The position numbers and the translations under genes were made by a program. Source: Phycisphaerae bacterium (GTDB taxonomy: Bacteria > Planctomycetota > Phycisphaerae > UBA1845 > Fen-1342). From it: a stretch of 64,000 bases of DNA. The notes beneath the pieces were generated by a model that was given only the letters and a program-made list of their open reading frames with translations, was not told the DNA's origin and searched no databases. Location of the stretch: positions 128,001-192,000 of the forward strand of contig CAXXWX010000015.1 in NCBI GenBank assembly GCA_963675745.2. The letters run 5' to 3'. This document shows, piece after piece, positions 1,144 to 17,918 of the stretch (positions are counted from its first letter, which is position 1; each line of letters begins with the position of its first letter).

Positions 1144-1671
1144 CTATGGACGGATGACGCGCTCGAGTTTCAGCGCTCGCCGCAGGTCGATTATCTGCCC
1201 GGTGTGCACAGCGGCGTGTAGCAGCACGCGCATCACGAGCGCGCGCATCGGTAATTCCGTATTCGCCCACGTGACGGTTTTTTCCAGCGTGGCCGTGTCT
1301 GCCGCGCGCAGGGCGGCCACAATCCGATCGAATGCCGCCTCGAAAATCTCAACGCCGCGCTCCAGCGTGGGAAATACCGTCGGCTCGTCCGCCGGCCGCG
1401 TGTCGTAGGCCACGGACTCGGTGTCAAAGCGCAGGTCGGTGCCGCTGGCGCCATCAGCGGAGATGAAGTCACGTTCGGGCAGGGGCTGACCGTCGATCAT
1501 CTCGGCCGTCCGATTCAGATATAGCGCAATATGCCCCAGGCACCACATCAGGTGATTCGGCAGGTTCTCCGCTTGTCGCGTGCGCGTACTTTCATCGAAG
1601 CCGGCCAGAAACCGCGTCAGAGACTCCTTGGCCGCCAGGGCGGCGTCGGCGAGCAGATCCTGTGCAGTCAT
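1144..1671 (-). CDS. DinB/YfiT-like metal-dependent protein
   Basis: NHLMWCLGHI and LLHAAVHTGQI His motifs of the DinB superfamily; 175 aa. Confidence 0.85.
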   Translation of the reverse strand: MTAQDLLADAALAAKESLTRFLAGFDESTRTRQAENLPNHLMWCLGHIALYLNRTAEMIDGQPLPERDFISADGASGTDLRFDTESVAYDTRPADEPTVFPTLERGVEIFEAAFDRIVAALRAADTATLEKTVTWANTELPMRALVMRVLLHAAVHTGQIIDLRRALKLERVIRP

Positions 1672-1771
1672 GTCATCTCCGTTGGCATGTAGCTCAGTGC
1701 GGGCCGGTCAAACAACACTGGCGACCCCGACATTTCAAGCCCGTAACGCCGTGGCCGGCCATCATGAGGTG

Positions 1772-3262
1772 CTACAGCAGCCCCACGTGCCCGTTAAAGT
1801 CCTCGATCAATCGATCCCACTCGGACACCTGTCCCCAGGTTTCTTCCCAGAAATCCGGATCCCAGAGCCGCCGCAGTTCATCCACATCGCGCTGCTGCTG
1901 CTCCACCCAGGTGAAATACTTGAAGTTGTGCAGCATTTTACGATCGCGATAGTCCAGCTCGCGCATATTGTCGGTGCCGATGCCCTCGATATAACGCGCG
2001 AAATGGTGTGCGGCGTTTGTCTGATCGTAAACGCCATACTCCGCGTGCTGCTCGGCCAGTCGGGATTGGTAGAGCTCGGTGGAATCGGTCAGCGGCGTGA
2101 TGATCACGTCGCGCGCGTCAAACTCGTAGTATCTGGCCGCCTTGATCGCGGCGACCAGGTTGCAGATGCTGGAAATGCCCAGCAGCGGCAGTTGCTCGAC
2201 AACCGCGCGAGCGGCACCCGCGCGCTCGAGAAACTGCCAGCCGGCCTCTTCGTTGAAGAGCCTCAAGAGCTGCATGCATTGCTCGTCGTCCACGGCCACG
2301 ACCATGTCGGTGTTGCGCACGTTGTGAATCCAGGGCACGTGCTTGTCGCCGATCCCCTCGATCCGGTGGCCGCCAAAGCCGCACGACAGTAGTGTCGGGC
2401 ACTGAAGCGCCTCGGTGGCTATGACCCTGAGTTGTGGGTAGCGCGTGCGGAGGAAGTCGCCGGCGGCGATGGTTCCGGCGCTGCCGGTAGCCGAGACGTA
2501 TGCCGCCAGACGCGGCGCGGGCATCTGTTCGCGCTGTGCCGCGGCTACGGCGCGCTGGAAGATCTCGTCGACGATTTGGCCGGTCAGGTGATAGTGCCAG
2601 ATGGCGTTCCCGAATTCGTCGAACTGATTGAAAATCACGCAATCCGAACGTGTGCGGCGGATCTCCCAGCACTTGTCGTAGATTTCCTTGACGTTCGACT
2701 CGCAGCCGGGTGTGGCAATCACCTCCGCGCCGACCGACTTCAGCCACTCGAAGCGTTCGGTGGACATCTCCTCCGGCAGAATCGCCACGGCCGTGCAACC
2801 CAACAGCGCGCAGTCGTACGCCCCGCCGCGACAGTAGTTGCCGGTGCTGGGCCAGACCGCTTTCTGCGTTGTGGGGTCGAACTTGCCCGACACCAGGCGT
2901 GGCACCAGGCAGCCAAACGCCGCCCCGACCTTGTGAGCGCCCGTGGGGAAGTGCTTGCCGACCAGGCCGATGATGCGGGTGGAGGTGCCGGTTATCTCCG
3001 GGGGGAACTCGATCCAGTTGCCGTCGTTGAACCCACCGCCGCGCTCCACCGGCTCGTTCTTCCACGTGATCCGGAAGAGATTCAGCGGATCGACGTCCCA
3101 CAGGCCGACGTTCTTGAGCCGCTCCTTGATCTCGGGCGGTATGGTCGTCGGGTCCATCTGCTGCGCAAACGTGGGGATGATGATGTTCCGCTCGTGGCAG
3201 CGCCGGGCTGTCGCTTTAAGCACGTTCTCGTTGATCTGCATGTTTGTCACCAGGGTAGCCAC
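1772..3262 (-). CDS. PLP-dependent fold-type II enzyme (cysteine synthase/threonine dehydratase-like)
   Basis: PTGAHKVGA (PLP Lys), PSTGNY, SATGSAGT and HRIEGIGD motifs; GGAGA RBS before the GTG start. Confidence 0.85.
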   Translation of the reverse strand: MATLVTNMQINENVLKATARRCHERNIIIPTFAQQMDPTTIPPEIKERLKNVGLWDVDPLNLFRITWKNEPVERGGGFNDGNWIEFPPEITGTSTRIIGLVGKHFPTGAHKVGAAFGCLVPRLVSGKFDPTTQKAVWPSTGNYCRGGAYDCALLGCTAVAILPEEMSTERFEWLKSVGAEVIATPGCESNVKEIYDKCWEIRRTRSDCVIFNQFDEFGNAIWHYHLTGQIVDEIFQRAVAAAQREQMPAPRLAAYVSATGSAGTIAAGDFLRTRYPQLRVIATEALQCPTLLSCGFGGHRIEGIGDKHVPWIHNVRNTDMVVAVDDEQCMQLLRLFNEEAGWQFLERAGAARAVVEQLPLLGISSICNLVAAIKAARYYEFDARDVIITPLTDSTELYQSRLAEQHAEYGVYDQTNAAHHFARYIEGIGTDNMRELDYRDRKMLHNFKYFTWVEQQQRDVDELRRLWDPDFWEETWGQVSEWDRLIEDFNGHVGLL

Positions 3263-3652
3263 CTCTCCAGGATGTCAGCGCCGTTTGCAGCGGCGCGGTC
3301 TCGCGTTCAACGCAGCGCTTCGGCGAACAGTGTAGCGGCCTGCGCCTCGCCGGCCGTGGGATATCGGGAACTCCGTTGTGCGCCGACGGCCGCCGCGGTG
3401 CCTTGGGCACCTTCTGTGTGCCATCGCCGAATCGGCTATACTACCCGCTTGCGAGTTTGATTTGGAGCACCCGCGGCGTCATTTACCGCGAAGTTGACTC
3501 GCAAGCCGGTGCGGCACTTTATACGTAAAGGACGCTGTGCGCACGCACCACGCTTGCGGCCGGCGCCCCCGGGCGTGTTAGCATTGGGGCCGCTACCAAC
3601 GCAATTGCGCGGTCAACCCGCAAGTCATTGAGACTGTAGATGGAGAAGACTG

Positions 3653-4969
3653 ATGGCGATCGTACTCGAGAACGCGCTGCTCGCTGATTTGGACCCGATT
3701 CGTGTCGAACCGGGCGGCTTACGCATCGACGCCGGCAACATCACCGAGCGCGGAGCACGCGTCTCGCAGACGGCGGCCGACGAGGTGATTGACTGCGCCG
3801 GCGCCGTCGTGCATCCCGGGCTGGTTAATGGTCATACGCACCTGTACTCGGCGCTGGCGACCGGCATGCCGGCACCGCCGAAGAGCCCGACCAACTTCCG
3901 GGAAACGCTCCAGTATGTTTGGTGGCGCCTCGATCGGGCGCATGACGCGGACTCGATCGAGTACTCGGCGCGGATCGGTGCGCTCGACGCCCTGCGCTGC
4001 GGAACGACAACGCTGATCGACCATCACGCCTCGCCGAGCCACATCGCCAATTCGCTCGACCTGATTCGTGACGGGCTCGCCGACGCCGGTGTGCGCGGCG
4101 TGCTGTGCTATGAGACGACGGATCGAAACGGCCCGGATGGTGCCGCGGCCGGGCTCGAGGAGAACCGGCGATTCGCCAGTGCTTGTCAGCAACAGCCCGA
4201 CGGCCGTTTCGCCGGACTGATCGGGGCACACGCGTCGTTCACGGTCGGTGACAAGACGCTCGCCGATGTCGCGGGCCTCACGAAGCAGCTTGGCGTTGGC
4301 GTACACGTGCATGTTGCCGAAGATCCTTGCGATGAGGATGACTGCCGGTCGCGCCACCAGGTCGGCCTGAGCGAGCGCTTCGCAAGCAATGGGCTGCTCG
4401 AACCAAACGCCGTGCTCGGGCACGGGACACACCTTGACGATGAGGCTATCAAACGCGTCATCGACGCCGGCCTTTCCATCGCGCATTGCCCGCGCTCCAA
4501 CATGAACAACAGCGTCGGGTATGCGCCGGTCGCGCGCTTCGGCGACATTGTCATGCTCGGCACCGACGGGCACGGCAGCGATATGTTCACCGAGGCGCGC
4601 ATCGCCTGGTTCATCGGGCAGCACGAGAAGGCCGGCCTGACGCCGGACGATGTGCTGCGCATGCTGGCGGCATCTGCCCGGCGGGCGTCGGCATCGCTGG
4701 GCGTGACGCTTGGCAAGCTCGAGCCCGGCGCGGTCGCCGACGTGGTCGTCACGGACTACCGTCCCGCGACGCCGATGACGAGCGCGAATCTGGCGGGCCA
4801 TTTTCTTTGGGGAATGAGCGCGGCCAGCGTCGCGAGCGTGATCACCGGCGGCCGCTGGGCCGTGCGGGACAGGAATGTGCTGACGCGTGATGAAACGGCG
4901 GACCGACGCCGCGCCCTGGAGGTTACCAACGCCTTCTGGGATCGCCTGAGCGGATACGGCTGCGATTGA
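3653..4969 (+). CDS. ssnA: SsnA-like amidohydrolase (putative aminohydrolase)
   Basis: NGHTHLYSALA, WWRLDRA, TTLIDHHASP, GAHASFT, HVHVAE, RSNMNN, LGTDG; lies in an xdh cluster. Confidence 0.85.
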   Translation: MAIVLENALLADLDPIRVEPGGLRIDAGNITERGARVSQTAADEVIDCAGAVVHPGLVNGHTHLYSALATGMPAPPKSPTNFRETLQYVWWRLDRAHDADSIEYSARIGALDALRCGTTTLIDHHASPSHIANSLDLIRDGLADAGVRGVLCYETTDRNGPDGAAAGLEENRRFASACQQQPDGRFAGLIGAHASFTVGDKTLADVAGLTKQLGVGVHVHVAEDPCDEDDCRSRHQVGLSERFASNGLLEPNAVLGHGTHLDDEAIKRVIDAGLSIAHCPRSNMNNSVGYAPVARFGDIVMLGTDGHGSDMFTEARIAWFIGQHEKAGLTPDDVLRMLAASARRASASLGVTLGKLEPGAVADVVVTDYRPATPMTSANLAGHFLWGMSAASVASVITGGRWAVRDRNVLTRDETADRRRALEVTNAFWDRLSGYGCD

Positions 4970-4996
4970 GTCGCGCGTGGCGGCCGACGTCCCCGC

Positions 4997-5040
4997 CGGC
5001 TGGCGGCTGATGTAGCGGCTGGCGGCTAATGTAACGGCCG
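4997..5040. repeat. 19-bp tandem repeat (2 copies plus a partial)
   Basis: cggctggcggctgatgtag / cggctggcggctaatgtaa / cggccg. Confidence 0.75.
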
Positions 5041-5099
5041 GCGCCCCGCCGGCCGGCGCACACCGTAGACGCCACTTCGCGCCGACGGCCTGCGAGGCG

Positions 5100-5167
5100 C
5101 AGGCCGCTACTTGGCGCTGGCCACCACTTGTCGCAGGCCGCTACTTGGCGCGGGCCGCTACTTGTCG
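5100..5167. repeat. 17-bp tandem repeat (4 copies)
   Basis: caggccgctacttggcg / ctggccaccacttgtcg / caggccgctacttggcg / cgggccgctacttgtcg. Confidence 0.85.
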
Positions 5168-5181
5168 TATGACGCGGCTGG

Positions 5182-5790
5182 TCAGGTGAGGTCCGCCAGA
5201 TCCGTGGGGGTATCCACATCATGCGTCACGCCGTGCGCGCGGCGCTCCACCAACCGCACGCGGTCCGCGTGTGCGTGCGGCAGAGCGTTCAAACCACGAT
5301 CACAGGCGCTTGAGCTGACGTACGGCGTGAATCGCGCGGGAAAGATGATCGGATGCCCGCGCCGTCCGCTGCGACTGGCGATGATGATGTGGTCCGGCGC
5401 GAGGCGGAAGGCATCGATGCACGCGTCGAAATCCGCGGTCGCGATTCCCGGCTGATCGCCCGGGCAGATAAGGAAACCATCGTGGTCGCGAATCGCCGCG
5501 CGCTGGCACCACGTGTCCATGCCGAGACGAACCGAGTCGATCATCTCGCTTCCGGGATTGTCGTTGAGCACAGCAAACACTGTCGAGTGCGGCGGCAGCG
5601 CGAGTTGCTCGGCGATTACCGCACGCGTGACCAGCGCGACACCCTCGACGCGCGAAGCGGCGAGCGGCTCGACGACCGCCGCGGCCATCTGACGTCCGCC
5701 GACGTCGATAAGCTGTTTATCCGCGCCCATGCGGCGAGACCAGCCGGCAGCGGGGACAATAGCGAACACGCGCGGCGGGCTCTGGTCCAT
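5182..5790 (-). CDS. mocA: Molybdenum cofactor cytidylyltransferase (MocA-like nucleotidyltransferase)
   Basis: AIVPAAGWSRRMGADKQL, PGDQP, GHPIIF, DVDTPTD; start taken at MDQSPP. Confidence 0.8.
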   Translation of the reverse strand: MDQSPPRVFAIVPAAGWSRRMGADKQLIDVGGRQMAAAVVEPLAASRVEGVALVTRAVIAEQLALPPHSTVFAVLNDNPGSEMIDSVRLGMDTWCQRAAIRDHDGFLICPGDQPGIATADFDACIDAFRLAPDHIIIASRSGRRGHPIIFPARFTPYVSSSACDRGLNALPHAHADRVRLVERRAHGVTHDVDTPTDLADLT

Positions 5791-5824
5791 TGTGCAGTCG
5801 GCTTTCAGCGCGCGGTGGCCGCCG

Positions 5825-7036
5825 TCAATTCGGGATAAGGGTGAGCGCATCCGCCGGGCAGGCGGTTACGCACAGCCGGCAGCCGGGGCACTTCTCCTTG
5901 TCAATCACGGGATAACGCGTCGCCTCGTCGATCGTGATGGCCTGGTGGGCACCATCCCGGCACGCGACATGGCACAGATCGCACTTGACGCAGCGCTCCT
6001 CGATCAAAGATGAGACCATCTTCTGATCACGCGACAACTCGCCGTGGCTCACAATGGCGCCGAGTGCCAGGCCGACGATGTCACAAGGACGGTCGTGTCC
6101 CTTTTCCTCGAGGTAAAACGCCAGCCCGTCTTGCAGGTCATCGACGATGTCGTAGCCGTAGTGCATCACGGCCGTGCAGAACTGGACCGTCGTCGCGCCG
6201 ACCAGCATCATCTCGACGGCGTCGCGCCAGGTGACGGGGCCACCGGTGGCGGTGATGGGGATGTCGACATTCTTGCTGATCTCGGCGAGTGTGCGCAGCG
6301 TGATCGGCTTGGTCGCCGGGCCTGACAGGCCACTGTAGGTGCTGCGGCCCTGCACGTCGGGATAGGGCACGAGCGTGTTCACGTTGACGCCCATCAACGA
6401 TGGAATCGTATTCGCCGCGCAGATGGCATCCGCGCCGCCGCGCTTTACGGCCTGGGCCACGTGTACAATGTTCGTGACCTGGGGGGTAATCTTGATCACG
6501 ACGGGACATCGCTGTGCCGCCTGCTTTACCCATCCGGTGACGCGCTCGGTCGCATCAATGCTCTGTGACAACATCGCGCCGGGCTCCTCACCCATGCTGC
6601 CCTGCGGGCATGAGAAGCTGCACTCGATGATGTCCACGCCGGCGTTTTCGAGGCGTTTGACGAGCGTCTGCCACTCCTCTTTCTTTGAGCCCATGATGCT
6701 GGTCGCGACGACCCGGTCGGGGTATTCGTTTTTCAGCGTCGTCACGCGCTGCTCGACCGCGTCGATGTGGTGCTCGGAGATCAGGTCAATATTGCCAAGC
6801 CCGACAATCCGCCGCCCCTGATGGTGCAGGGCGCTCATCATGGGGTATACGAGGTCAACGCACTCACTCTCGACCGACGTGGTCTTGAGCACGGCGCCGG
6901 CCCAGCCGGCTTCGAATGCGGCCCGGACCATGTCGAGGTCATCCGTGGGCGGGGCGGCGGACAACAGGAACGGGTTGGCAAAGCGCACACCGCAGAAATC
7001 CAGCGACAGGTCGCGCGAATGGGTGATCATTATCAC
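5825..7036 (-). CDS. preA: PreA-like dihydropyrimidine dehydrogenase FMN subunit with C-terminal 2x[4Fe-4S] domain
   Basis: NPFLLSAAPPT, GWAGAVLKT, SCPQG catalytic loop, ANT, YSGLSGPA; CVKCDLCHVAC and CPGCRLCVTACP. Confidence 0.85.
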   Translation of the reverse strand: MIMITHSRDLSLDFCGVRFANPFLLSAAPPTDDLDMVRAAFEAGWAGAVLKTTSVESECVDLVYPMMSALHHQGRRIVGLGNIDLISEHHIDAVEQRVTTLKNEYPDRVVATSIMGSKKEEWQTLVKRLENAGVDIIECSFSCPQGSMGEEPGAMLSQSIDATERVTGWVKQAAQRCPVVIKITPQVTNIVHVAQAVKRGGADAICAANTIPSLMGVNVNTLVPYPDVQGRSTYSGLSGPATKPITLRTLAEISKNVDIPITATGGPVTWRDAVEMMLVGATTVQFCTAVMHYGYDIVDDLQDGLAFYLEEKGHDRPCDIVGLALGAIVSHGELSRDQKMVSSLIEERCVKCDLCHVACRDGAHQAITIDEATRYPVIDKEKCPGCRLCVTACPADALTLIPN

Positions 7037-8358
7037 AATCCTCTGATGTAGGCATCAATGGCCCGTGCGGCGCGCACACCCTCGGCGACCGACGCCACGA
7101 TGGTCGTGCCACCACCGGCGACCGCGTCGCCACCGGCGTATACGCCGGGACGGGATGTCGCGCCTGTTTCGGGATTCACCTGGATAAAGCCGGCCTTGTC
7201 GGTATCGACGCCGGGTAGTGCATCGGCCAAGTCCGGCGCCGGTCGGGCCCCGGTTGCGAAAACCACCATCTCGCCCGGCAGCCAGTATTCCGTGCCGGCG
7301 ATCGGTACCGCGTTTTCCGGAACGAAGCGGTCCGGCACCTGCCAGCGGATGCGCACGGCCCGCAGTCCGGTGACCTTGCCGCCTTCACCCGTTATCTCGA
7401 TCGGCAGCGAGCGCGTGTGGAAGCGGGCGCCCATATCTCGCACCTCGGCGAGCTCGTCTTCGTCCGCGGGCATCTCGTTGGGAGCTTCGAGACACACGAT
7501 ATCGACCTCGTTGGGCGTGCGGTGAAGCACGGTGGTGGCCACGTCCATCGCCACACCGCCGGCGCCCACGACGATCACGTGTGGCGGCAACTCGGGCTCG
7601 GCGCCTTCGCCCAGGTGGCTGGCGGAACAGGCGTTGAGCAGCGGTTTCCACGTGGTGACACCATCGAGGTCAGTGCCGGGGACCGGCGGCAGGTTGGACT
7701 GCTGCGCCCCTACCGCCAGGTAGCAGGCGCGGTATCCCGATGCCAGCAGATCGTCCAGCGTCACGTCGCGTCCGAAGCAGGTCGAGGTCTGTATTTCGGC
7801 GCCCAGCGCTTTGACGTGCTCGACTTCGGCGGCAACGAGCTCGTTCGGGATGCGCTGCGCGGGCACGCCATAGGTGCAAATCCCGCCGGCGCGCGGCGCC
7901 TGCTCAAAGACAACCGGCTTGTGCCCGCGTGATGCCAGCTCGGCCGCCGCGGCAAGTCCCGAAGGTCCGCCGCCGATCACGGCCACTTTCTCGCGGTCTT
8001 CGTCGCCGGCTGGGGCAGTGCTGCGGTCGGACTGGAAATCCGTCACCGCGGCATAGTGCTGTAGCCGGCCGATCGCGATCGGGGTCGTCAGATCGCTGGA
8101 ACGGCAGGCACCAACGCACAGACGCTCCACGGGGCAGGCCAGTCCGCAGATGCCCGCGAGCACGTTCCGCTCCCGGATCAGGTTGATGGCGCGGCGTGGA
8201 TTGTCGAAGCGGATGGCGCGGATGAAGTGCTTGACCGGAACGTGTGCCGGACAAGCGGCTTCGCAGGGTGGATCGTCGCACAACAGACAGCGGGAGGCTT
8301 CCAGCATGGCCTGTGTGTCGGTCAAGGTCGGACCAAATTCGTGGCTTACTTCGGTCAT
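7033..8358 (-). CDS. preT: PreT/GltD-like NAD(P)H-dependent FAD/Fe-S subunit
   Basis: CLLCDDPPCEAACP, CGLACPVERLCVGAC, GGGPSG, YAGGD; stop overlaps the preA GTG start. Confidence 0.85.
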   Translation of the reverse strand: MTEVSHEFGPTLTDTQAMLEASRCLLCDDPPCEAACPAHVPVKHFIRAIRFDNPRRAINLIRERNVLAGICGLACPVERLCVGACRSSDLTTPIAIGRLQHYAAVTDFQSDRSTAPAGDEDREKVAVIGGGPSGLAAAAELASRGHKPVVFEQAPRAGGICTYGVPAQRIPNELVAAEVEHVKALGAEIQTSTCFGRDVTLDDLLASGYRACYLAVGAQQSNLPPVPGTDLDGVTTWKPLLNACSASHLGEGAEPELPPHVIVVGAGGVAMDVATTVLHRTPNEVDIVCLEAPNEMPADEDELAEVRDMGARFHTRSLPIEITGEGGKVTGLRAVRIRWQVPDRFVPENAVPIAGTEYWLPGEMVVFATGARPAPDLADALPGVDTDKAGFIQVNPETGATSRPGVYAGGDAVAGGGTTIVASVAEGVRAARAIDAYIRGL

Positions 8359-8517
8359 ATTCGTCTCGCTGCCTGGATATGCCGCCTTGCGGCCAGAGCC
8401 GCCGATTTTGCGACCAGCATCATAGGCCTAGCGCCGCTACCAAGGCAAGTCCGCTGAGCGGCGCGGCTCCCGTTGCCGCGTCGCCGCGGCTCGGCTTAGA
8501 ATGGCCGCCGACGCCCC

Positions 8518-11166
8518 ATGACAAACGAAGCCAATGCAAAACCAATCTCCTTCGCACTCAACGGGAAGGACGTGACGGCAAGCGTCGATCCGGCGCGTTC
8601 GCTGCTTAGCGTGCTGCGCGAAGAGCTTGGCGTCACGTCACCGAAGAATGGCTGCGAACCGCAGGGAGCGTGCGGTTGTTGCACGGTTCTGGTCGACGGC
8701 CGGCCATGGCTGGCGTGCAAGACGTCTATGACCAAGGTGGCGGGTCACCACGTTACCACGTTGGAGGGGCTTTCTGAGCGAGAGCGCCGCCAACTGGCCG
8801 ATTGCTTCGTCCGCAGCGGTGGATTGCAGTGCGGATTCTGCATCCCCGGCATCGCGGTGCGCGCGACGGCTCTGCTGAATCGCAATCCGACACCATCGCG
8901 CGCGGAAATCGTCCGCGAGCTTCGCGCTCACCTTTGCCGCTGCACTGGATACACCAAGATCATCGACGCCGTCGAGTTGCTCGCGCGCGTGCGCCAGGGC
9001 GCCGAGCTTCCCAGCCTCGAACAGAGCGGCAAGGTGGGCACACGGCTCGATCGGCACGGCGCCCGCGACCAGGTGCTCGGCGACTTTCAGTACGTTGATG
9101 ACATCCGGCCGCAGGGCGTGCTCTACGCCGGCCTGCGATTTGCTGATCATCCCCGCGCGGTCGTCAAGGCCATCGACGCATCCGCGGCGCAGGCCTGTGC
9201 CGGGGTGCGTCGTGTGATCACCGCGGCCGACGTGCCCGGCGAGCGCTACGTCGGCCTGATCGAGCGGGACTGGCCGGTCCTGGTGGCGATCGGCGAAGAA
9301 ACGCGTTGTATGGGCGACGTAATCGCGATTGTCATCGCTGACAACCAGCGTTTGGCACGCGCAGCGGCGGCGAAGTTGGTCGTGGAATACGACGTCCGCG
9401 AACCGGTGACCACGCCGGAAGCCGCGCTGAAGCAGGATGCTCCGCGCATTCACCCGTGCGGCAATCTGCTCTCGCATTCCAAGGTAAGACGCGGCACGAC
9501 GGAGAGCGCGCTGGCCGATTGCGCGCACGTCGTCGAGGAAACCTATACCACGCAACGCGTCGAACACATGTTCCTCGAACCCGAGGCGTGCGTTGCCGTC
9601 CCGCAATCAGACGGCTCGCGGTTGCACGTGTTCAGCCAGGGGCAGGGTGTGTTTGACGACCGCCGGCAGATTGCCGCGGTTCTCGGCTGGGAGGCCGAGC
9701 GCGTACACGTCGAGCTGCGCTCGACCGGCGGCGCGTTTGGCGGCAAGGAGGACCTGAGTATTCAGGCGCAGACGGCGCTTGGGGCCGTGCTGTGTGCGGC
9801 GCCGGTGAAGTGTACGCTCACGCGCGCTGAGAGCTTCCGGCTGCACCCTAAGCGTCACCCGATCAGGATACACATCAAGGTCGGCTGTGATGCAGAGGGG
9901 CACATCACCGGCGTGTGGGCCCGGATGATCGGTGACAAGGGCGCCTATGCCTCGGTCGGGGCCAAGGTGATCGAACGCGCCGCGGGGCACGCCGTCGGCC
10001 CCTACAAGGTCCCCAACGTGGATGTTGAGGCTCTCGGGGTGTACACGAACAATCCTCCCGGCGGCGCGATGCGCGGTTTCGGTGTGAACCAGGCCGCGTT
10101 CGCGATGGAGCGCTCGCTTGATCGGCTCGCCGGCAAGGTCGGGATAAGCGGCTGGGAGATGCGCTGGCGCAACGTGCTCGACGTCGGCGACCGCTTCTGC
10201 ACGGGGGAGATACTCGACAAGCCGTTTGGACTCAAACGCACGCTCCTGGCCGTGAAGGACGCGTACAACGCCGCGAAATACGCGGGCATCGCCTGCGGGA
10301 TCAAGAACATCGGCATGGGCAACGGTCTGGTCGATGAGGGCAAGGCGGTGATGCGGGTCGAATCACCCCGGCGCATCACTATCCGTACCGGCTTCACTGA
10401 GATGGGGCAGGGATATTTCACCGTCTGCGTGCAGGCCGCCTGCGAGGAAACCGGCCTGCCGCCGGACGTTTTTGCACCGCTAACTGACACGTCGGCTGAC
10501 GTTAACTGTGGTCAGACAACCTCCAGCCGCGCCACGGTGCTGGGCGGAATGGCCGTCAAGCGCGCCGCGACCGCCTTGCGCGCACAACTGGACGCCGGCA
10601 ACTCGCTGGAGGACCTGGTCGGCCGTGAGTTTCGCGGCGAGTACACCTGCGCCCCCACCAGCCCGCCCGACGCGACGGACCCCGAACCGAGAGTTCACCT
10701 GACCTACGGCTATGCCACGCAAGTGGTGATCCTCAATGATGATGGCAGCATGCGAAAGGTGATTGCCGCCCACGACGTCGGTCGGGTCATAAATCCCACC
10801 TTGCTCGAAGGACAGATCGAAGGCGCGATTCACATGGGGCTCGGGTATGCGCTGACGGAAGAGCTGGTGGTCCAGCGTGGCGAACTCCAGAGCCGGACCG
10901 TCAGATCGCTCAACATTCTCCGGGCCCATCATATGCCCGAGGTTGAGTGCGTTTTCATCGAAGTGCAGGACCCTGAGACAGTCTATGGCGCCCGTGGTGC
11001 GGGTGAAATCGGTCTGGTGCCGACGGCTCCCGCCGTGGCCGCGGCCCTGGAGGCGTACGACGGTATTCACCGCACGAGCCTGCCGATGCGCGATTCCCCC
11101 GCCGCCCGGGCAATCCTGAAATCAAAGGGGCCTCGACGACTAAAATCAGAGTCTGAGTGTAAATGA
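8518..11166 (+). CDS. xdh: Xanthine dehydrogenase-family Mo-hydroxylase (2Fe-2S plus Mo-binding domains; resembles the selenium-dependent Xdh type)
   Basis: KNGCEPQGACGCCTV, QCGFCIPG, LCRCTGY, GGAFGGKE, AMRGFG, EMGQG, GAGEIG; no FAD domain. Confidence 0.88.
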   Translation: MTNEANAKPISFALNGKDVTASVDPARSLLSVLREELGVTSPKNGCEPQGACGCCTVLVDGRPWLACKTSMTKVAGHHVTTLEGLSERERRQLADCFVRSGGLQCGFCIPGIAVRATALLNRNPTPSRAEIVRELRAHLCRCTGYTKIIDAVELLARVRQGAELPSLEQSGKVGTRLDRHGARDQVLGDFQYVDDIRPQGVLYAGLRFADHPRAVVKAIDASAAQACAGVRRVITAADVPGERYVGLIERDWPVLVAIGEETRCMGDVIAIVIADNQRLARAAAAKLVVEYDVREPVTTPEAALKQDAPRIHPCGNLLSHSKVRRGTTESALADCAHVVEETYTTQRVEHMFLEPEACVAVPQSDGSRLHVFSQGQGVFDDRRQIAAVLGWEAERVHVELRSTGGAFGGKEDLSIQAQTALGAVLCAAPVKCTLTRAESFRLHPKRHPIRIHIKVGCDAEGHITGVWARMIGDKGAYASVGAKVIERAAGHAVGPYKVPNVDVEALGVYTNNPPGGAMRGFGVNQAAFAMERSLDRLAGKVGISGWEMRWRNVLDVGDRFCTGEILDKPFGLKRTLLAVKDAYNAAKYAGIACGIKNIGMGNGLVDEGKAVMRVESPRRITIRTGFTEMGQGYFTVCVQAACEETGLPPDVFAPLTDTSADVNCGQTTSSRATVLGGMAVKRAATALRAQLDAGNSLEDLVGREFRGEYTCAPTSPPDATDPEPRVHLTYGYATQVVILNDDGSMRKVIAAHDVGRVINPTLLEGQIEGAIHMGLGYALTEELVVQRGELQSRTVRSLNILRAHHMPEVECVFIEVQDPETVYGARGAGEIGLVPTAPAVAAALEAYDGIHRTSLPMRDSPAARAILKSKGPRRLKSESECK

Positions 11167-11271
11167 CGGGACAGATGCACAGAACTCGAATCGCTACCGA
11201 CAGGTGTCATGCACGGGTAGCATGGCAGGTCAGCAGCGTAAACGCCGTCATCAGCTCCGCGCGGTGCTGTA

Positions 11272-12204
11272 ATGAGTGAACTGATTCCACTACTTGAGAC
11301 ACTCGTCACCGATGCCGACGCGGGGCGCGACGTTGCCCTGTGCGTCGTGGCCGAGACCAGGGGATCCACGCCGCGCGCTCCCGGGGCGGCGATGCTGGTG
11401 CGCGCGGACCAGAGCACGCAGGGCACGCTGGGGGGCGGGTGTGTCGAAGCTGATACCGCCCGGCAGGCTTTCCAAATGCTGCGCAGCGGTCAGTCCGGCC
11501 TGCTGGAGTTCAAGCTCGATAGTGACGACGCCTGGGATGACGGGTTGATTTGTGGTGGAAACATGACGATCGCCGTCACGCCTGTCCGCGCTGGCACGGA
11601 TCTTACGTGCTATCGAGAGGCGCTCGCGCTGGCGGCCGAACGCGAGCCGGCCCAGTTCCCGGTTCACGTGGAGCACAGCGGTGCGGCGCGGGAGTATCGC
11701 ATACACGTCGAGGTGGCGCCGCAGCTGGTGATCGCCGGTGCCGGCCACGTCGGACAGGCTGTGGCCCAGCTTGCCGTCGGGCTCGATTTTGACGTAATCG
11801 TGATTGACGACCGCGCCGATTTCGCCACCTCGACGCGCTTTGATCAGCGGGTGCGGCTGATCGCCGACGATATTGCGCGGACGCTGCGCAACTACGCGCT
11901 GGACGCCGACAGCTATGTTGTGATTGTCACGCGCGGACATCGCCATGATCATCAGGCACTTGACGCGGTCATTCGGCGTGACGCGGCATATATCGGCCTG
12001 ATCGGCAGCCGGCGCAAATCGCGAATGATTCTCAAGGCCCTTGCCGAAGCCGGCGTTGCCCCCGCACGTATCGAAGCAGTCCACACGCCGATCGGTCTGC
12101 CGATTGGCGCGGTCACCGTGCCGGAGATCGCGGTCAGCATCGTAGCGGAGCTTGTCAAGGTGCGGCGCGCGCGGCTACCGACGCTGGTTGAAAGAGTGGT
12201 GTAG
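11272..12204 (+). CDS. xdhC: XdhC/CoxI family Moco chaperone
   Basis: GSTPRAPGA, GTLGGGCVE, ICGG, AGAGHVG, VTRGH, YIGLIGSRRK, PIGLPIGA. Confidence 0.9.
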   Translation: MSELIPLLETLVTDADAGRDVALCVVAETRGSTPRAPGAAMLVRADQSTQGTLGGGCVEADTARQAFQMLRSGQSGLLEFKLDSDDAWDDGLICGGNMTIAVTPVRAGTDLTCYREALALAAEREPAQFPVHVEHSGAAREYRIHVEVAPQLVIAGAGHVGQAVAQLAVGLDFDVIVIDDRADFATSTRFDQRVRLIADDIARTLRNYALDADSYVVIVTRGHRHDHQALDAVIRRDAAYIGLIGSRRKSRMILKALAEAGVAPARIEAVHTPIGLPIGAVTVPEIAVSIVAELVKVRRARLPTLVERVV

Positions 12205-12255: not shown

Positions 12256-15105
12256 CTACGGTCGCAGCAGAATAAGATTGCCCAACGCCTGCGGGGCGTA
12301 GCAGTGCCCGCGCGCGGCAGACCAGGAGCTGTACTCGCCACGGCGCGCATCGAGCCTGGTTATGTTCAGACCCCAGATGCGGTTGCGTTGGGCCTGCGGG
12401 CCGAACGCATCGAGCGGCAAGGCTAGTTCGACCGTCCAGGCGTCGGTGCCGTGCGTGACCGAGACGCGCGCCCGCGCATTCCAGGGCTCGACCGGCCCCA
12501 CGGGGGGATCAGTGGGACAGCCGCGATATGTCCGCAGCAGCCCGCTGGGCTTGACCTGAATGAGGTTCAGATCGCCGGAAGTTCCGGTCAACGCGTTTTC
12601 CGGGCTGATGATGATCTCGACGGTGTCCTGCCCCCACGGCACGATGCCATCGAGCGGTACGGCACTATCGGTCAGCCACTGGGCGCGGTGCCCCGGTTCG
12701 AGCGTGCAGCGCACGGCGATATACAAGTGCTCGTCGTCGAGCGCGAAATAGGCGCGCGTGGGCATACTCGGCTCGTACGGATTGGCGACCTCGTCAACGG
12801 AGCGGCGACCGCGGCAGAGCTGGAAATCGCCGGCGGCATTGTTAACCCCGAGCGGCCAGTCGGAGAGGTCACCGTCAATCCGGGGCGGACGGTCCACCCG
12901 TGGAGCCGACGCGACGGCCAGCCGGGCCCGCGACACGAACTCGCCGGCTTCTCGCGTGTCAAACGCCACGTCGAACGGATACGCCCCGTCGGCATTGTAT
13001 GCCAGACCGACCAGGGCCAGCTCCATTGCCGTCTGACGGTGCGCGCCGGCCGGCACGTCGAGTGGCGGGGCTTCCACCAGTTCCCATCCGGGTGGCAACG
13101 TCGGCAACCCCCATTCGCCGTGTACTCCATGCCGCGTGGTGTTGCGCGCCCCGACAAAGACACGCGCCCGCAACCCTTCCGGATCATCCACCAGCCGCAC
13201 GCCGCCCGGAATGATGCGGATTCCCGCGGCCTGCGTCAGCAGAAGCTGCCAGCGGGCCAGGTTGGCCGTCTGTTGCGATTGTCCGGCGCTGGTGGGCTCA
13301 AAGAGATTGACCAGCTCCTGCAACATGACCTCGCGGGCCAGTTGGAATGTGGCCTCATCGTCGGACCAACCCGCCGGCAGGCAACTCAGCAGATGTTCGC
13401 GGCATGCATCCGTGCCGGCGTACTGCACCAACTGAGCGGCCAGTTGGTCCGCCAACGCGCTCTTGCCGTGTCGCCTCAACAGCGCCAGCAGCTCATAGTC
13501 CAACAGCGCGCGTCGCAGCAGCTTGAGTCGAACGGATGGCACGGGGCGATCGCGCAACCCATATGCGCTGCCGGGGTAGATGAGTGCCTCATGCGAAACC
13601 GGGTGGTTGAACTCGGCGGCGTGTTCGACCCACAGCGCATCACAGCCGTAGCGATATGCGAGCCAGGCCAGGGAGCGCACATCGTTGGCCGGCGCCTCGG
13701 GCGCCAGCGAACCGCTGTATGGTGGATACGCCGGCAACAGCCAGGCCTCGCGACCCAGATTCTGTTCGAGCGCCAGGGCCTTTGGCTCGAACCAGGTGGC
13801 CGGCGGGGCCCACACGTCCACCTCGCCCGCGTTGATCTCCGGCGCATTGACCCAGCCGAGTCCACGTAGTGACTTCGGCGGCAGGTGGGCTACGAGTCGG
13901 GCCTCGATGTCCTGGGCGCGCATCATGGCGCTCACGCGGCGCACCCTCTCGACGTAGGCCGTAGTGAGCGCGCCGGGAGGGCACGGGCGCACGAATGCTC
14001 GCTCGGCCCAGCCGCGCTCCGTGAAGTGCTCGTGGCAGGCACGCAGGTACGCGCCGAACAGGGCGGCATAGCCGGGGGACATTATGCCATCGTTGCGCGC
14101 CGCCGCGGGATAGTTGAGCGACAGCGGCAGAGGCCAGTGACTGGTGGCGACCCGGTCCGCGTAGGCGCTGCCATCCAGCCACCCGCCAACCAGCGCATCG
14201 TACATCGTCCAGTCGATTGAGACGGTGCGCGCATCGATGGGACGGTACTTTGGAAACGAGGCCCACAGAACTGGCGTCGCGCGGTGGCTGTGGAACAGCT
14301 CCATGGTCGCGCCGACCAGCTCGAGTGCATCAGCATGCGCGGGCTCATCGGGCAGCAACAAGGTCTCTTCAGCCGAGGTCGGCGGCCAATCGTGGTGCGC
14401 GCTGAGCAGGTCGCGCGGATCAATGCGGCATAGCAGCGGGAAGGCCCGCTGGTCCGGGATGGCGACCGGTAGCACCTGGAGCGTGATGTCGGCCTCGTAA
14501 AGTGCGTTCGACCCGCGCGAGACCACGCGCAGCTTGCCCGCAAACTCGCCCGGCTCCGTCGTCGCCGGCACGTGCAGGTCCACCCAGATGGTCTCGGCGG
14601 CGCTGTTGCTCAATCTGATCGGTCCGCCGCCGCGCGGAGCATCCCAAGGCACCAGGATGTCCGGGAAGCGTGTCGGAATGCTGGGACGCGAGGTGTGATC
14701 GGGATACCAACTGCGGAAATCACTGACCTGCACCGAGTGTACGCGGTAGAGCGTCAGGCTGTCGCGGGGGACGATGCTGTCGCCGGTCGCGCTCGCCAGC
14801 GGTGTTATTTCCAGATCCAGCGGCCCCAGCGGCGGCTGGTCGCACTGAAGCATGACTTGAAACGCGATGGTTTCGTTGATCGCCGCAGTCAGCGTGACTT
14901 CCCGGCGTTCATTGGAGAACGTGTTGCTCTCCAAGCGTGGCGGCGTGTCCGCGAGGATGTGCGTGTCACCGTCGGCGACCCAGACCGACAGCGACCGGGC
15001 CCCGATCTCGGCGCAACCAACGCCGGCCAGCAAAAGCATGCCCGCTGACAGCGACACAATCCGGCAGAGGCATCTACCCGTTGCGACCCGCGCTATTCGC
15101 GCCAT
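12256..15105 (-). CDS. Large lipoprotein with GH123/DUF4091-like core and C-terminal CBM9-like sugar-binding domain
   Basis: Lipobox LAGVGC; NETIAFQV, WVDLHVP, PSVRLKLLR; C-terminal PRIDGDLSDW and WTVELALP. Start chosen at MARIARV. Confidence 0.65.
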   Translation of the reverse strand: MARIARVATGRCLCRIVSLSAGMLLLAGVGCAEIGARSLSVWVADGDTHILADTPPRLESNTFSNERREVTLTAAINETIAFQVMLQCDQPPLGPLDLEITPLASATGDSIVPRDSLTLYRVHSVQVSDFRSWYPDHTSRPSIPTRFPDILVPWDAPRGGGPIRLSNSAAETIWVDLHVPATTEPGEFAGKLRVVSRGSNALYEADITLQVLPVAIPDQRAFPLLCRIDPRDLLSAHHDWPPTSAEETLLLPDEPAHADALELVGATMELFHSHRATPVLWASFPKYRPIDARTVSIDWTMYDALVGGWLDGSAYADRVATSHWPLPLSLNYPAAARNDGIMSPGYAALFGAYLRACHEHFTERGWAERAFVRPCPPGALTTAYVERVRRVSAMMRAQDIEARLVAHLPPKSLRGLGWVNAPEINAGEVDVWAPPATWFEPKALALEQNLGREAWLLPAYPPYSGSLAPEAPANDVRSLAWLAYRYGCDALWVEHAAEFNHPVSHEALIYPGSAYGLRDRPVPSVRLKLLRRALLDYELLALLRRHGKSALADQLAAQLVQYAGTDACREHLLSCLPAGWSDDEATFQLAREVMLQELVNLFEPTSAGQSQQTANLARWQLLLTQAAGIRIIPGGVRLVDDPEGLRARVFVGARNTTRHGVHGEWGLPTLPPGWELVEAPPLDVPAGAHRQTAMELALVGLAYNADGAYPFDVAFDTREAGEFVSRARLAVASAPRVDRPPRIDGDLSDWPLGVNNAAGDFQLCRGRRSVDEVANPYEPSMPTRAYFALDDEHLYIAVRCTLEPGHRAQWLTDSAVPLDGIVPWGQDTVEIIISPENALTGTSGDLNLIQVKPSGLLRTYRGCPTDPPVGPVEPWNARARVSVTHGTDAWTVELALPLDAFGPQAQRNRIWGLNITRLDARRGEYSSWSAARGHCYAPQALGNLILLRP

Positions 15106-16118
15106 CCCTGGACCTCGTAGAGTTTCCGCGGAACCTCCGGATGCCACGTACGCGCGGACAGGTAGATTGTCTCGAGCAGCGCGGCGACGGCCACGTGCCG
15201 GTGGAGTGTTTTCGTCGCCGCCTCGCGCGCCGGCCGTCCGGTCAGCGACCGCGCGAATTGTGCCAGGTCGGCGTCGAGCATATCCGTCGCGAACGGTCTC
15301 TCGACGAGCATCTCGCCGTCCAGATCGGTAATGCTGATGGCATGGGGCGTGATCTTGACGGTGTGGGCGGCGCCGTGGTGCAGCGTGTATTGCTCGTGCG
15401 GGTGTATGTCCCAACTGGCGCGAACGGATACCACGCCGCCGCCTTCGTAGCGGAAAACCGCCAGCGCGACATCCTCGGTTTCGCGGGCGGCCTCGCCGGG
15501 GTGCCGTCGAAACCTGCCGGTGGTCGCGGATACATTGTCAGGCAGGCCGCGCATGGCGATCAGGGCTTCGAGCATGGGATAGGCGTCGAGCGTCATCACG
15601 CCCCCGCCGGCATCGATGGTCCCGGCGCGCCAAGAGTGAATCGAGGGCCCCGACGCCGCCACCACGATATCCGTATAGCGCGGCTTGAAATCGTCGAGGG
15701 TCTGCAAGGCCTCACGAATAGGCGCGCGCACGTGGTCCCACCACGACATGACGCGATAGACCCGGGGGCGCTGTTCGACGGCCGTCACCAGTTGCGTCGC
15801 CTCGGCGAAGTTGCGCGCCAGCGGCGGCGTGCGCCAGACCGACAGGCCGTATGTGCCCGCGGTTTCGTCAAGGTCGATCGCGGCGCGCGTCGAGGTGGCC
15901 AACACCAACGCGTCAAGCTTGGATTGAGTGATCATCACGCGGCGGTCGTCAAACCACTCGACATCCGCCGGCACTTCCAGGGCCGCGCCCGACGTCGCGA
16001 CCAGGTGCCAGTTCGGCGACGAGCTCAGCAGGCGAACCAGCGTCGGCCCCTGCTCCTCATCAGCCACCAGGCCCACGCGCGGCGGGCCTTCATCCGAAGC
16101 GTTGTCGGCTGCGCTCAT
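15093..16118 (-). CDS. Gfo/Idh/MocA-family oxidoreductase-like protein (degenerate)
   Basis: KLDALVLAT, AGGGVMTLDAY, ETEDVALAVFRYEGG; canonical GxGxxG and EKP motifs are not intact. Confidence 0.7.
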   Translation of the reverse strand: MSAADNASDEGPPRVGLVADEEQGPTLVRLLSSSPNWHLVATSGAALEVPADVEWFDDRRVMITQSKLDALVLATSTRAAIDLDETAGTYGLSVWRTPPLARNFAEATQLVTAVEQRPRVYRVMSWWDHVRAPIREALQTLDDFKPRYTDIVVAASGPSIHSWRAGTIDAGGGVMTLDAYPMLEALIAMRGLPDNVSATTGRFRRHPGEAARETEDVALAVFRYEGGGVVSVRASWDIHPHEQYTLHHGAAHTVKITPHAISITDLDGEMLVERPFATDMLDADLAQFARSLTGRPAREAATKTLHRHVAVAALLETIYLSARTWHPEVPRKLYEVQGWRE

Positions 16119-16262
16119 GGTCGTATAATCGCTCCCGATCGTGGCGCGGAAGCGGGCTTGTCTCGCCGCGCCCGCTTGGCCCGTATCGTAGCCTACATTT
16201 TGCGCACACCGGAGCGATTGTGCCACCTCCGTGCGGACTTCAACTTCGGATCGGAGCCGGCG

Positions 16263-17147
16263 TTGAACGCGGACCAGCCAAGCTTGCTGACCACCGACCT
16301 GCCCAATCTGCTGCAGCGCGGCAAAGTCCGCGACATCTACGACCTCGGCCAGTCGCTGATGATCGTCGCCACCGATCGCATATCGGCGTTCGACGTCGTG
16401 ATGAACGAGGCCATACCGGGCAAGGGTGTCGTGCTGACGCGCATGTCGGAGTTCTGGCTGCGCCGACTGACGGCGTGCCGGCCACATCACCTGGACTATG
16501 TCGTCGATGATGATCACATGCCGGGTGGTTACGAGGAGCACCTGGATGTTCTGCGCGGCCGCGCGATGGTCTGCCGCAAGGCCCGCGCGTTGCCGATCGA
16601 GTGTGTCGTGCGCGGGTACATCATCGGCGGCGGTTGGCGCGAGTATGAGGAAACCGGGGCCGTGAGCGGCATTTCGCTGCCGCCGGGCCTGCGGCGCGCT
16701 CAGCAACTTGCCGAGCCGCTCTTCACGCCGAGCACCAAGGCCACCGACGGGCACGACGAGCCGGTGTCGTTCGAGCGCGCGTGCAATATTGTCGGTCGCG
16801 AGTTGATGACGCAGGCATGCGACCGTGCCCAGGCGATCTACGCCGAAGGGGCGCGCTACGCGGCGACACGCGGTATCATCATCGCCGATACCAAGTTCGA
16901 GTTCGGCATCTGCGACGGCGAGCTGATCCTCATCGACGAGGTGTTGACGCCGGATTCATCGCGCTTCTGGCCGGCCGACGGCTACAAGGTTGGCGCAGAC
17001 CCGCCGAGCTTCGACAAACAGTTCGTCCGCGACTATCTGAGCGGCCTGACGTGGAACAAAGAGCCGCCACCACCGCCGCTGCCGCCGAATATCATCGCGC
17101 AGACACAGGCCAAATACACCGAAGCGCTCGAACGGCTGACTGCATAG
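16263..17147 (+). CDS. purC: Phosphoribosylaminoimidazole-succinocarboxamide synthase
   Basis: RGKVRDIY, ATDRISAFD, IECVVRGY, FTPSTKA, DTKFEFG, DEVLTPDSSRFW, SFDKQFVRD; TTG start after GGAG. Confidence 0.95.
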   Translation: MNADQPSLLTTDLPNLLQRGKVRDIYDLGQSLMIVATDRISAFDVVMNEAIPGKGVVLTRMSEFWLRRLTACRPHHLDYVVDDDHMPGGYEEHLDVLRGRAMVCRKARALPIECVVRGYIIGGGWREYEETGAVSGISLPPGLRRAQQLAEPLFTPSTKATDGHDEPVSFERACNIVGRELMTQACDRAQAIYAEGARYAATRGIIIADTKFEFGICDGELILIDEVLTPDSSRFWPADGYKVGADPPSFDKQFVRDYLSGLTWNKEPPPPPLPPNIIAQTQAKYTEALERLTA

Positions 17148-17816: not shown

Positions 17817-17918
17817 CAACAAGTCTCCGCGCGATGCGCCAGTGTGTCGAGTTTGTTGCGTAGGTAGTGTGGCACGGCGGACGGTCGTGTGCAAGTGACG
17901 AGGGAGAAAGGCGGCAGA

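What the first reader, a model, noticed from the sequence alone, without database searches (positions are those of the whole stretch)
1144..12204. Variant reductive purine-catabolism cluster in which a split PreT/PreA pair may replace YgfK
Seen: ssnA, mocA, preA-like, preT-like, an FAD-less Mo-hydroxylase, xdhC, a PLP fold-II enzyme and DinB within 11 kb. Established: the enterobacterial/clostridial anaerobic urate pathway uses Xdh, YgfK (a DPD-related flavo/Fe-S enzyme), SsnA, HyuA, YgeY, YgeW and the PLP enzyme YgeX. Inference: here the two-subunit DPD-like enzyme performs the YgfK ring-reduction step and/or supplies electrons to the FAD-less Xdh, and a non-YgeX PLP enzyme performs the final elimination. 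That would be a re-wired pathway in a planctomycete. hyuA/ygeY/ygeW are not in this window.
Basis: partly seen in the sequence, partly recalled or inferred. Interest (0 to 1): 0.72.

Follow-up and report, generated by a model that had tools for sequence, protein, structure and literature searches.

The report
Swapped reductase in anaerobic urate breakdown
A planctomycete carries a variant of the recently solved oxygen-free uric-acid breakdown pathway in which a modified pyrimidine-reducing enzyme pair very probably does the ring-reduction step; such a swap is already proven in Clostridioides difficile, but this appears to be a separate, untested enzyme lineage that also occurs in archaea.

Summary
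All eight genes are real. The genome has no detectable ygfK, ygeX or ygeY; ygeW, carbamate kinase, xdhD-ygfM, selD, yqeB/C and a separate ordinary fused PreT-PreA lie elsewhere.

The window's PreA belongs to a distinct clade (100/99 support) with changed substrate-site residues. Of 44 other genomes with this clade, 40 have ssnA and none has YgfK, full or short. All 19 ssnA-bearing relatives without the clade have a short YgfK, in four cases in the same gene slot. PreT/PreA therefore very probably replaces YgfK.

The idea is published: C. difficile UacX does this in vitro (PMC12507026). The probable UacX family is a different clade (28% identity, p-AU 0.003), but UacX itself could not be fetched. 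Electron supply to the Mo enzyme is unsupported. The PLP enzyme tracks the pathway, but a ThrC-like enzyme competes for the last step.

This scan noted a split-pair cluster (e1-4641838) and the PLP swap before, on other DNA. Verdict: new variant of a known pathway.

The parts
1144..1671 (-). DinB_2 protein; probably accessory or incidental
   Evidence: Pfam PF12867 E 1e-12. A homolog appears in only 1 (L028) of the 75 loci.
1772..3250 (-). 492-aa CysK-like PLP fold-II enzyme; candidate substitute for YgeX
   Evidence: PALP. AlphaFold model pLDDT 88.7; best fold matches are O-acetylserine sulfhydrylases at 20-27% identity. K107, S135-T-G-N138 and Q209 are invariant in 114 homologs. Found in 39 of 44 clade genomes and 0 of 15 ssnA-negative relatives.
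3653..4969 (+). SsnA-like amidohydrolase (opens the six-membered ring after reduction)
   Evidence: Best NCBIfam hits are PRK07203/TIGR03314, below cut-off. 36% to E. coli SsnA. Metal-site motifs HxH, HxxE and GTDG are shared with E. coli SsnA.
5182..5790 (-). MocA-like Mo-cofactor cytidylyltransferase (start at 5790 inferred; longest ORF starts at 5850)
   Evidence: NTP_transf_3; TIGR03310 below cut-off; conserved in the same slot in relatives.
5825..7030 (-). PreA-family FMN / 2x[4Fe-4S] subunit of a distinct clade; proposed 2,8-dioxopurine reductase
   Evidence: NF006183 over cut-off. Clade support 100/99. Catalytic S-C-P loop kept; pig-DPD positions N668, E611 and R589 read S, D and M. The 401-aa form is an exact database entry.
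7033..8358 (-). PreT/GltD-like FAD / 2x[4Fe-4S] subunit; proposed NAD(P)H electron input, NADH inferred
   Evidence: Fer4_20 + Pyr_redox_2. Eight Cys in the N-terminal domain; acidic C-L-E where YgfK has Y-R-R. Ends 2 bases before the preA start.
8518..11166 (+). Selenium-dependent Mo hydroxylase, TIGR03311, no FAD domain (DOPDH/XdhAC type)
   Evidence: 961 bits, cut-off 830. 43% to the Enterococcus faecalis enzyme in a full urate cluster. Purine-site Glu and Arg and the catalytic Glu are present, A1078 is T, F1009 is N rather than V.
11272..12204 (+). XdhC/CoxI Mo-cofactor insertion chaperone
   Evidence: XdhC_CoxI + XdhC_C.

Best explanation
The cluster is the upper part of a reductive urate (2,8-dioxopurine) pathway that is scattered over several contigs. 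(1) A Mo enzyme reduces urate to 2,8-dioxopurine: either the window's TIGR03311 enzyme or the XdhD-YgfM on contig C21. (2) PreT takes electrons from NAD(P)H, probably NADH, and passes them via FAD and four [4Fe-4S] clusters to the FMN of PreA, which reduces the pyrimidine ring of 2,8-dioxopurine in place of YgfK. A smaller residue at the N668 position probably makes room for the second ring. (3) SsnA opens the ring. (4) The genome's single D-hydantoinase (C26) probably acts as HyuA. (5) YgeW and, in place of YgeY, a second ATCase-like carbamoyltransferase (both C2) remove the ureido groups as carbamoyl phosphate, which carbamate kinase turns into ATP. (6) The window's CysK-like enzyme and/or the ThrC-like enzyme on C2 eliminate ammonia from 2,3-diaminopropionate to give pyruvate. 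Shown here: gene identities, absences, co-occurrence, slot swap, clade and residues. Known from papers: the chemistry of the E. coli and Clostridium enzymes. Inferred: every activity assigned to this organism's proteins.
For: No YgfK in G000: TIGR03315 best 299.5 bits against cut-off 835, GltD-like part only; no short YgfK; no 360-aa UacX-type beyond PreA itself. An ordinary fused DPD with hydantoinase and aminotransferase sits on C26, so the window's pair is not needed for uracil. ssnA lies in 28 of 47 fetched core-clade loci and in 40 of 44 of their genomes. Full YgfK is in 0 of 44; short YgfK is in 0 of 45 including G000, against 19 of 19 ssnA-bearing class relatives without the clade. In L175, L178, L181 and L184 the short YgfK fills the slot between xdh and mocA that preT-preA fills here and in L015, L019, L028 and L029. 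Precedent: C. difficile UacX plus SsnA converts yanthine (PMC12507026, Fig. 2d-f legend and methods). selD, yqeB and yqeC are present. ygeX is in 1 of 44; the CysK-like enzyme is in 39 of 44 and the ThrC-like in 35 of 44, one or the other in all 44. ygeY is in 22 of 44 and the second transferase in 18 of 44, both in only 3.
Against: No assay and no expression data. G000 is 91% complete with 6% contamination, so an absence could be an assembly gap. Most comparison genomes are fragmented MAGs, relatives are not independent, and only the 12 best candidates per genome were scored. The window's SsnA is below the family cut-off. 19 of 47 loci show no ssnA, 10 of them despite 4-10 kb of downstream flank. 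A sister subclade in six Clostridia genomes coexists with full YgfK, 6 of 6, so close relatives can have another job. The Mo enzyme lacks the F1009V mark of DOPDH. Seven of 44 genomes show neither ygeY nor the second transferase. PLP homologs at 42-43% identity occur in non-purine contexts. No NCS2 purine transporter was found in G000.
Confidence: 0.75

Rival explanations
1. PreT/PreA is a second pyrimidine dehydrogenase, or reduces another heterocycle, and only sits in a nucleobase-catabolism region.
For: PreA passes the PreA family cut-off and is 39-43% identical to ordinary PreA/DPD. The sister Clostridia subclade coexists with YgfK. Two of eight relatives with the clade show no second DPD.
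Against: Mutual exclusion with YgfK and the same-slot swap. An ordinary DPD is present in G000 and in six of eight clade-bearing relatives. Substrate-site residues are changed across the clade.
Confidence: 0.12
2. The clade is simply UacX with a PreT partner, so this is a new member of a published enzyme family and not a separate recruitment.
For: Li et al. scored any PF01180 gene near ssnA as UacX, which would include this clade. They call UacX a PydA homolog resembling PydAc, and the clade is closer to PydAc than the 360-aa family is. C. difficile Q181U4 was not retrieved.
Against: The two annotated clusters with the C. difficile gene set (dpaL, ygeY, D-aminoacylase, no ygfK listed) carry a 362-366-aa family with no FAD partner. 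That family is 28% identical to the window's PreA, and one clade with it is rejected, p-AU 0.003.
Confidence: 0.2
3. PreT (or PreT/PreA) also feeds electrons to the FAD-less Mo enzyme encoded divergently beside it.
For: The genes are adjacent in 10 of 47 loci, all Planctomycetota. The electron donor of DOPDH is stated to be unknown (10.1101/2025.04.24.650524; PMC12990295).
Against: The same Mo enzyme lies beside an FAD-less short YgfK in L175, L178, L181, L184 and L188 and beside full YgfK in Enterococcus and Collinsella. 37 of 47 clade loci show no such Mo enzyme.
Confidence: 0.15
4. The ThrC-like enzyme on C2 is the diaminopropionate lyase. The window's CysK-like enzyme does a different step, such as handling the other enantiomer, eliminating from a ureido-alanine, or a beta-replacement.
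For: ThrC-like is closer to YgeX (27%, E 2e-13) than the CysK-like enzyme is (E 1.5e-5). It is often the gene right beside ssnA. It is present in all five clade genomes where the CysK-like enzyme was not found. The CysK fold is typically L-specific (recalled), while the pathway's intermediates are proposed to be R/D.
Against: Four archaeal genomes (G090, G092, G093, G096) have the CysK-like enzyme, no ygeX and no ThrC-like match at E 1e-75. That threshold missed one known case (G064, locus L015).
Confidence: 0.45

Closest known systems
C. difficile-type reductive urate cluster with UacX (Li et al. 2025, PMC12507026)
   Same: A DPD/PydA-family FMN enzyme replaces YgfK near ssnA. The Mo enzyme has no FAD subunit and about 25% identity to E. 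coli XdhD (24% here).
   Different: UacX lacks an FAD module and was assayed with viologen; here a PreT partner is encoded. The probable UacX family is a separate clade (identity of Q181U4 inferred). C. difficile keeps ygeX and ygeY and uses UacY; G000 has ygeW, a second transferase and two other PLP enzymes.
E. coli / C. sporogenes 2,8-dioxopurine pathway (XdhD-YgfM or DOPDH, YgfK, SsnA, HyuA, YgeW, YgeY, YgeX, carbamate kinase)
   Same: SsnA-like, YgeW (64%), carbamate kinase (51%), XdhD (55%, Glu606 kept), TIGR03311 enzyme, selD/yqeB/yqeC.
   Different: No YgfK, YgeX or YgeY found; genes spread over contigs C15, C2, C21 and C26.
E. coli PreT-PreA NAD-dependent dihydropyrimidine dehydrogenase
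   Same: Two-gene FAD/Fe-S plus FMN/Fe-S layout; 33% and 39% identity; catalytic Ser-Cys-Pro loop.
   Different: Separate clade; N668S, E611D and R589M relative to pig DPD; purine-pathway neighbours; an ordinary DPD coexists in the genome.
Dehydrogenase family X1 and pseudo-ATCase group 2 (Barba et al. 2013, PMC4016543)
   Same: An uncharacterised DHODH/DPD-superfamily gene linked to ssnA, ygeW, ygeY and xdh; a pseudo-ATCase next to ygeW.
   Different: X1 is described as branching before the PydA/PreA group, which fits the 360-aa family; the window's PreA is nested inside that group. Their alignment files could not be read.
Cysteine synthase CysK / OASS
   Same: Fold, PLP lysine and substrate loop.
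   Different: At most 98 bits against cut-offs of 344-351; about 180 extra residues at the two ends; purine-pathway context.

Membership tests
YgfK / DOPOR (TIGR03315) | Single ~1000-aa chain over the TIGR03315 cut-off, with the YgfK-type FMN domain | tested here: not met
   PreT scores 182.5 against 835; PreA against the YgfK N-terminal part gives E 0.012.
YgfK / DOPOR (TIGR03315) | NAD(P)H-dependent reduction of 2,8-dioxopurine | not testable with these tools
   Inferred from context only.
UacX (C. difficile type) | PF01180 gene near ssnA where ygfK is missing | tested here: met
UacX (C. difficile type) | No FAD-binding module | tested here: not met
   A PreT-like gene lies in 40 of 47 core loci, fused to preA in at least 2; four loci with 4.6-10 kb of upstream flank (L041, L048, L049, L064 at 10 kb; also L036 at 4.6 kb) show none.
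UacX (C. difficile type) | Orthology to Q181U4 | tested here: inconclusive
   Q181U4 not retrieved. The proxy family from C. butyricum and Cetobacterium is a separate clade.
PreT-PreA dihydropyrimidine dehydrogenase | NF006183 cut-off, adjacent PreT, Fe-S cysteine motifs, catalytic Cys | tested here: met
PreT-PreA dihydropyrimidine dehydrogenase | Pyrimidine-binding set N609, N668, N736, T737 (roles recalled; numbering from the pig alignment) | tested here: not met
   N609, N736 and T737 are kept; N668 is Ser throughout the clade loci.
PreT-PreA dihydropyrimidine dehydrogenase | Uracil/thymine reduction | not testable with these tools
   No assay.
Se-dependent XDH / DOPDH type (TIGR03311) | Family cut-off, no FAD domain, selD + yqeB + yqeC in the genome | tested here: met
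Se-dependent XDH / DOPDH type (TIGR03311) | DOPDH site marks F1009V and A1078T/S | tested here: inconclusive
   A1078T is present; position 1009 is Asn, against Val in Enterococcus and Collinsella.
SsnA (TIGR03314) | Curated cut-off 455.5 | tested here: not met
   369 bits; still the best family, far above other amidohydrolases (at most 175).
YgeX diaminopropionate ammonia-lyase (TIGR01747) | Family cut-off 274 | tested here: not met
   Best match in the genome is 28 bits, on C2; the window's enzyme is not among the matches.
Cysteine synthase CysK (TIGR01139/01136) | Curated cut-off | tested here: not met
   98 and 95 bits against 351 and 344; fold shared.

The most novel reading that the evidence does not exclude
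A lineage inside the dihydropyrimidine dehydrogenase family was recruited, independently of YgfK and UacX, as an NAD(P)H-linked 2,8-dioxopurine reductase through a few active-site changes. It is spread over uncultured bacteria and archaea. In this planctomycete it heads a version of the pathway with three swapped steps, yielding two carbamoyl phosphates per urate and ending with a CysK-fold or ThrC-fold lyase.
Probability: 0.55. Interest if true: 0.65.

Novelty: new variant of a known kind. Interest (0 to 1): 0.5.

Why it matters
If true, gene screens built on ygfK, ygeX and ygeY miss many environmental purine degraders, and these PreA-labelled genes are misread as uracil catabolism. The clade has a simple signature (NIDLI / ECSFSCPQ), so the annotation can be fixed. 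It gives a direct test of how a pyrimidine reductase becomes a purine reductase, by comparing it with the ordinary DPD in the same genome. It also suggests the pathway reaches archaea, whereas the commentary I read describes it as bacterial. It is not a new pathway, and the replacement principle is already proven for UacX, which limits the surprise.

Tried and rejected
Single-sequence AlphaFold of the PLP enzyme failed (pLDDT 36); the model from a 114-sequence alignment was used instead.

Two homolog searches aimed at a named C. difficile UacX did not list one among the best 120 rows each, so its placement rests on a proxy. Supplements of Li et al. and Barba et al., which hold the structural models, networks and alignments that could settle this, could not be read.

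The 'ygfK' hits of about 31% over 400 residues beside preA in many loci were rejected as YgfK: they cover only the GltD-like part.

D-aminoacylase-like genes in G000 (C12, 32%; C26, 30% to the Cetobacterium enzyme) were considered as UacY and set aside, since their neighbours are unrelated. The weak ygeY match on C19 lies in what looks like an arginine-synthesis operon.

DinB was dropped as a core part (1 of 75 loci).

The promoter scan found 5 sites against 1.7 expected, two of them divergent between preT and xdh; this is only suggestive.

No complex prediction was run.

A paper search for the DPD residue roles found nothing useful; those roles are recalled.
Full report
Observation. preT-preA-mocA run on the minus strand towards ssnA; xdh-xdhC run divergently from preT; the PLP gene and dinB run divergently from ssnA. 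The Mo enzyme is a full member of TIGR03311 (961 bits, cut-off 830) with no FAD domain. PreA passes NF006183. SsnA and MocA are best hits to their families but below cut-off. Close PreA relatives are Phycisphaerae/Planctomycetota MAGs.

Rest of the genome (91% complete, 6% contamination). No YgfK, no YgeY and no YgeX reach their cut-offs. Contig C2 holds ygeW, an ATCase-like second carbamoyltransferase, a ThrC-like PLP enzyme and carbamate kinase. C21 holds ygfM, xdhD (55% to E. coli, Glu606 kept), mocA, yqeB, yqeC and a third Xdh. C26 holds the only D-hydantoinase over cut-off, next to an ordinary fused PreT-PreA and near an aminotransferase. selD is on C4. So the pathway's other parts exist, and uracil reduction already has its own enzyme.

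What the PreA is. In a 32-sequence tree the window's PreA falls in an 11-row clade (100/99) inside the PreA/DPD family, apart from E. coli PreA, C. butyricum PydAc-type and the genome's own DPD (a 102-row FastTree agrees). The clade keeps the catalytic Ser-Cys-Pro loop, N609, N736 and mostly T737, but reads Ser at pig N668, Asp at E611 and Met at R589 (residue roles recalled). It is not a split YgfK. Members occur split, fused (830-860-aa representatives) or with no PreT nearby. Named carriers include Planctomycetota, Gemmatimonadota, WOR-3, Nitrospirales, Myxococcales, Zixibacteria, Ignavibacteria, Gammaproteobacteria, Thermoplasmatota and Bathyarchaeia MAGs. The planctomycete PreT has an acidic C-L-E at the dinucleotide site where YgfK and many other members have Y-R-R, so NADH use is inferred.

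Does it replace YgfK? Of 54 genome loci with at least 46% identity, 47 belong to the core clade and 7 to a Clostridia sister group. ssnA lies in 28 of the 47 core loci and a PreT-like gene in 40. I searched the genomes of 50 of the 54 (44 core, 6 sister; L018, L024, L027 and L065 left out for the size limit). ssnA-like: 40 of 44 core; two of the four misses show a partial ssnA at the contig end. Full YgfK: 0 of 44 core, 6 of 6 sister. In an even sample of 221 genomes of the window's class, 21 had ssnA, 2 had the clade and none had full YgfK. The other 19 all had a 700-aa YgfK lacking the FAD/NAD(P)H module, which none of the 45 clade genomes had. In four of the 19 this short YgfK sits exactly between the same xdh and mocA-ssnA genes. 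This same-slot swap is the strongest evidence. Limits: fragmented MAGs, related genomes, at least one genome that appears under two handles, and no assay.

Electron supply to the Mo enzyme. Not supported. The Mo enzyme pairs equally with the FAD-less short YgfK and with full YgfK, and only 10 of 47 clade loci show it. An FAD-less, selenium-dependent DOPDH with unknown donor is published. The window's enzyme has A1078T but Asn, not Val, at F1009, and XdhD-YgfM on C21 could do the first step instead, so its product is open.

The PLP enzyme. It has a CysK fold with long extensions and over 8000 homologs. It was found in 39 of 44 core genomes and 6 of 6 sister genomes, and in 0 of 15 ssnA-negative relatives. 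ygeX was found in 1 of 44. A ThrC-like enzyme was found in 35 of 44, against 1 weak hit in 20 ssnA-negative relatives; every one of the 44 has one or the other. The last step therefore belongs to one or both, and I cannot separate them. Distant homologs lie in unrelated operons. ygeY (22 of 44) and the second transferase (18 of 44) overlap in only 3 genomes, and 7 have neither, which suggests the transferase replaces YgeY in G000.

Comparison with print. Li et al. (bioRxiv 10.1101/2025.05.19.654654, parts 1-3 of 5 read; Life Metab PMC12507026, part 2 of 7 and passages; supplement not readable) name UacX as the PydA homolog replacing YgfK in C. difficile, show a coupled assay per the figure legend and methods, and list three reductase variants. 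The words PreT, PreA, Planctomycet-, cysteine synthase and threonine synthase do not occur in their main text, but their PF01180 neighbourhood count would absorb this clade. Liu et al. (10.1101/2025.04.24.650524, parts 1-2 of 9 and passages) define the pathway and DOPDH. Percudani (PMC12990295, part 1 of 2) lists the open questions. Barba et al. (PMC4016543, part 2 of 7 and passages) described family X1 and a pseudo-ATCase beside ygeW. Johnstone and Self (PMC11448449) and the PydAc paper (PMC7332683) were seen as passages only. Paper searches listed no paper on a PreT-partnered reductase or a CysK-like lyase in this pathway; the library lacks most subscription papers. Clusters with the C. difficile gene set in C. 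butyricum and Cetobacterium carry a 362-366-aa enzyme, 28% identical to the window's PreA, and joining the two in one clade is rejected (p-AU 0.003). Whether Q181U4 belongs to that family is inferred, not shown.

Earlier notes of this scan (unchecked AI notes) report a split DPD pair in an Ignavibacteriales cluster, the PLP swap, the short YgfK and the two-transferase form on other genomes. I tested these points here independently; they were not counted as support.

Verdict. A real, conserved variant of a known pathway. The reductase swap is likely (about 0.75 for the whole reading). The principle is published; the specific lineage seems undescribed and is easy to test. Interest 0.5.

Noticed in passing
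G000 C2:46971-51450 (L003:8972-13451): ygeW facing an operon of carbamate kinase, ThrC-like PLP enzyme and an ATCase-like transferase; the transferase is nearly mutually exclusive with ygeY (both in 3 of 44 genomes).
   Followed up: partly
L175:6021-8405, L181:11474-13588: 700-aa YgfK without the FAD/NAD(P)H module, found in 19 of 19 ssnA-bearing class relatives that lack the PreA clade.
   Followed up: partly
L044, L046, L047, L050, L059: Archaeal MAGs carry the PreA clade with a PreT partner. Four also have ssnA over cut-off, the CysK-like enzyme and the second transferase; L059 has ssnA, two carbamoyltransferases, a hydantoinase and carbamate kinase in one locus.
   Followed up: partly
L057, L058, L060-L063, L065: Clostridia sister subclade (Asp at N736) with its own ssnA, hyuA, ygeY-like and xdh paralogs, in L057 beside what look like sugar-acid aldolase/kinase genes, in genomes that also have full ygfK; perhaps a parallel pathway for another substrate.
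   Followed up: partly
L004:9275-10753 (G000 C21): 492-aa amidohydrolase-like gene directly after xdhD; a similar gene follows the Mo enzyme in L032. Possibly a purine deaminase.
   Followed up: no
L005:13720-15999 (G000 C26): PorC fused to a GltD-like flavoprotein, upstream of porA/porB and the hydantoinase-DPD genes.
   Followed up: no
L006:8318-9751 (G000 C15): 8-oxoguanine deaminase over cut-off, which would feed urate into the pathway.
   Followed up: no
G000 C4:75978-76904: selD with an in-frame TGA, consistent with selenocysteine.
   Followed up: no
window 16200-19580: purC (SAICAR synthetase) and guaB (IMP dehydrogenase) lie 4-7 kb downstream of the cluster; not seen as conserved neighbours, not tested.
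   Followed up: no
window 12256-15414: Large protein with weak GH123-N and CBM9-like matches, function unclear.
   Followed up: no
L003:7180-8535: Kinase matching the MADS anti-phage MAD6 model below cut-off, just upstream of ygeW.
   Followed up: no
L085 excluded; G085:C1:145348-146550: ThrC-like gene with one in-frame TGA beside ssnA in a Nitrospirales MAG.
   Followed up: no
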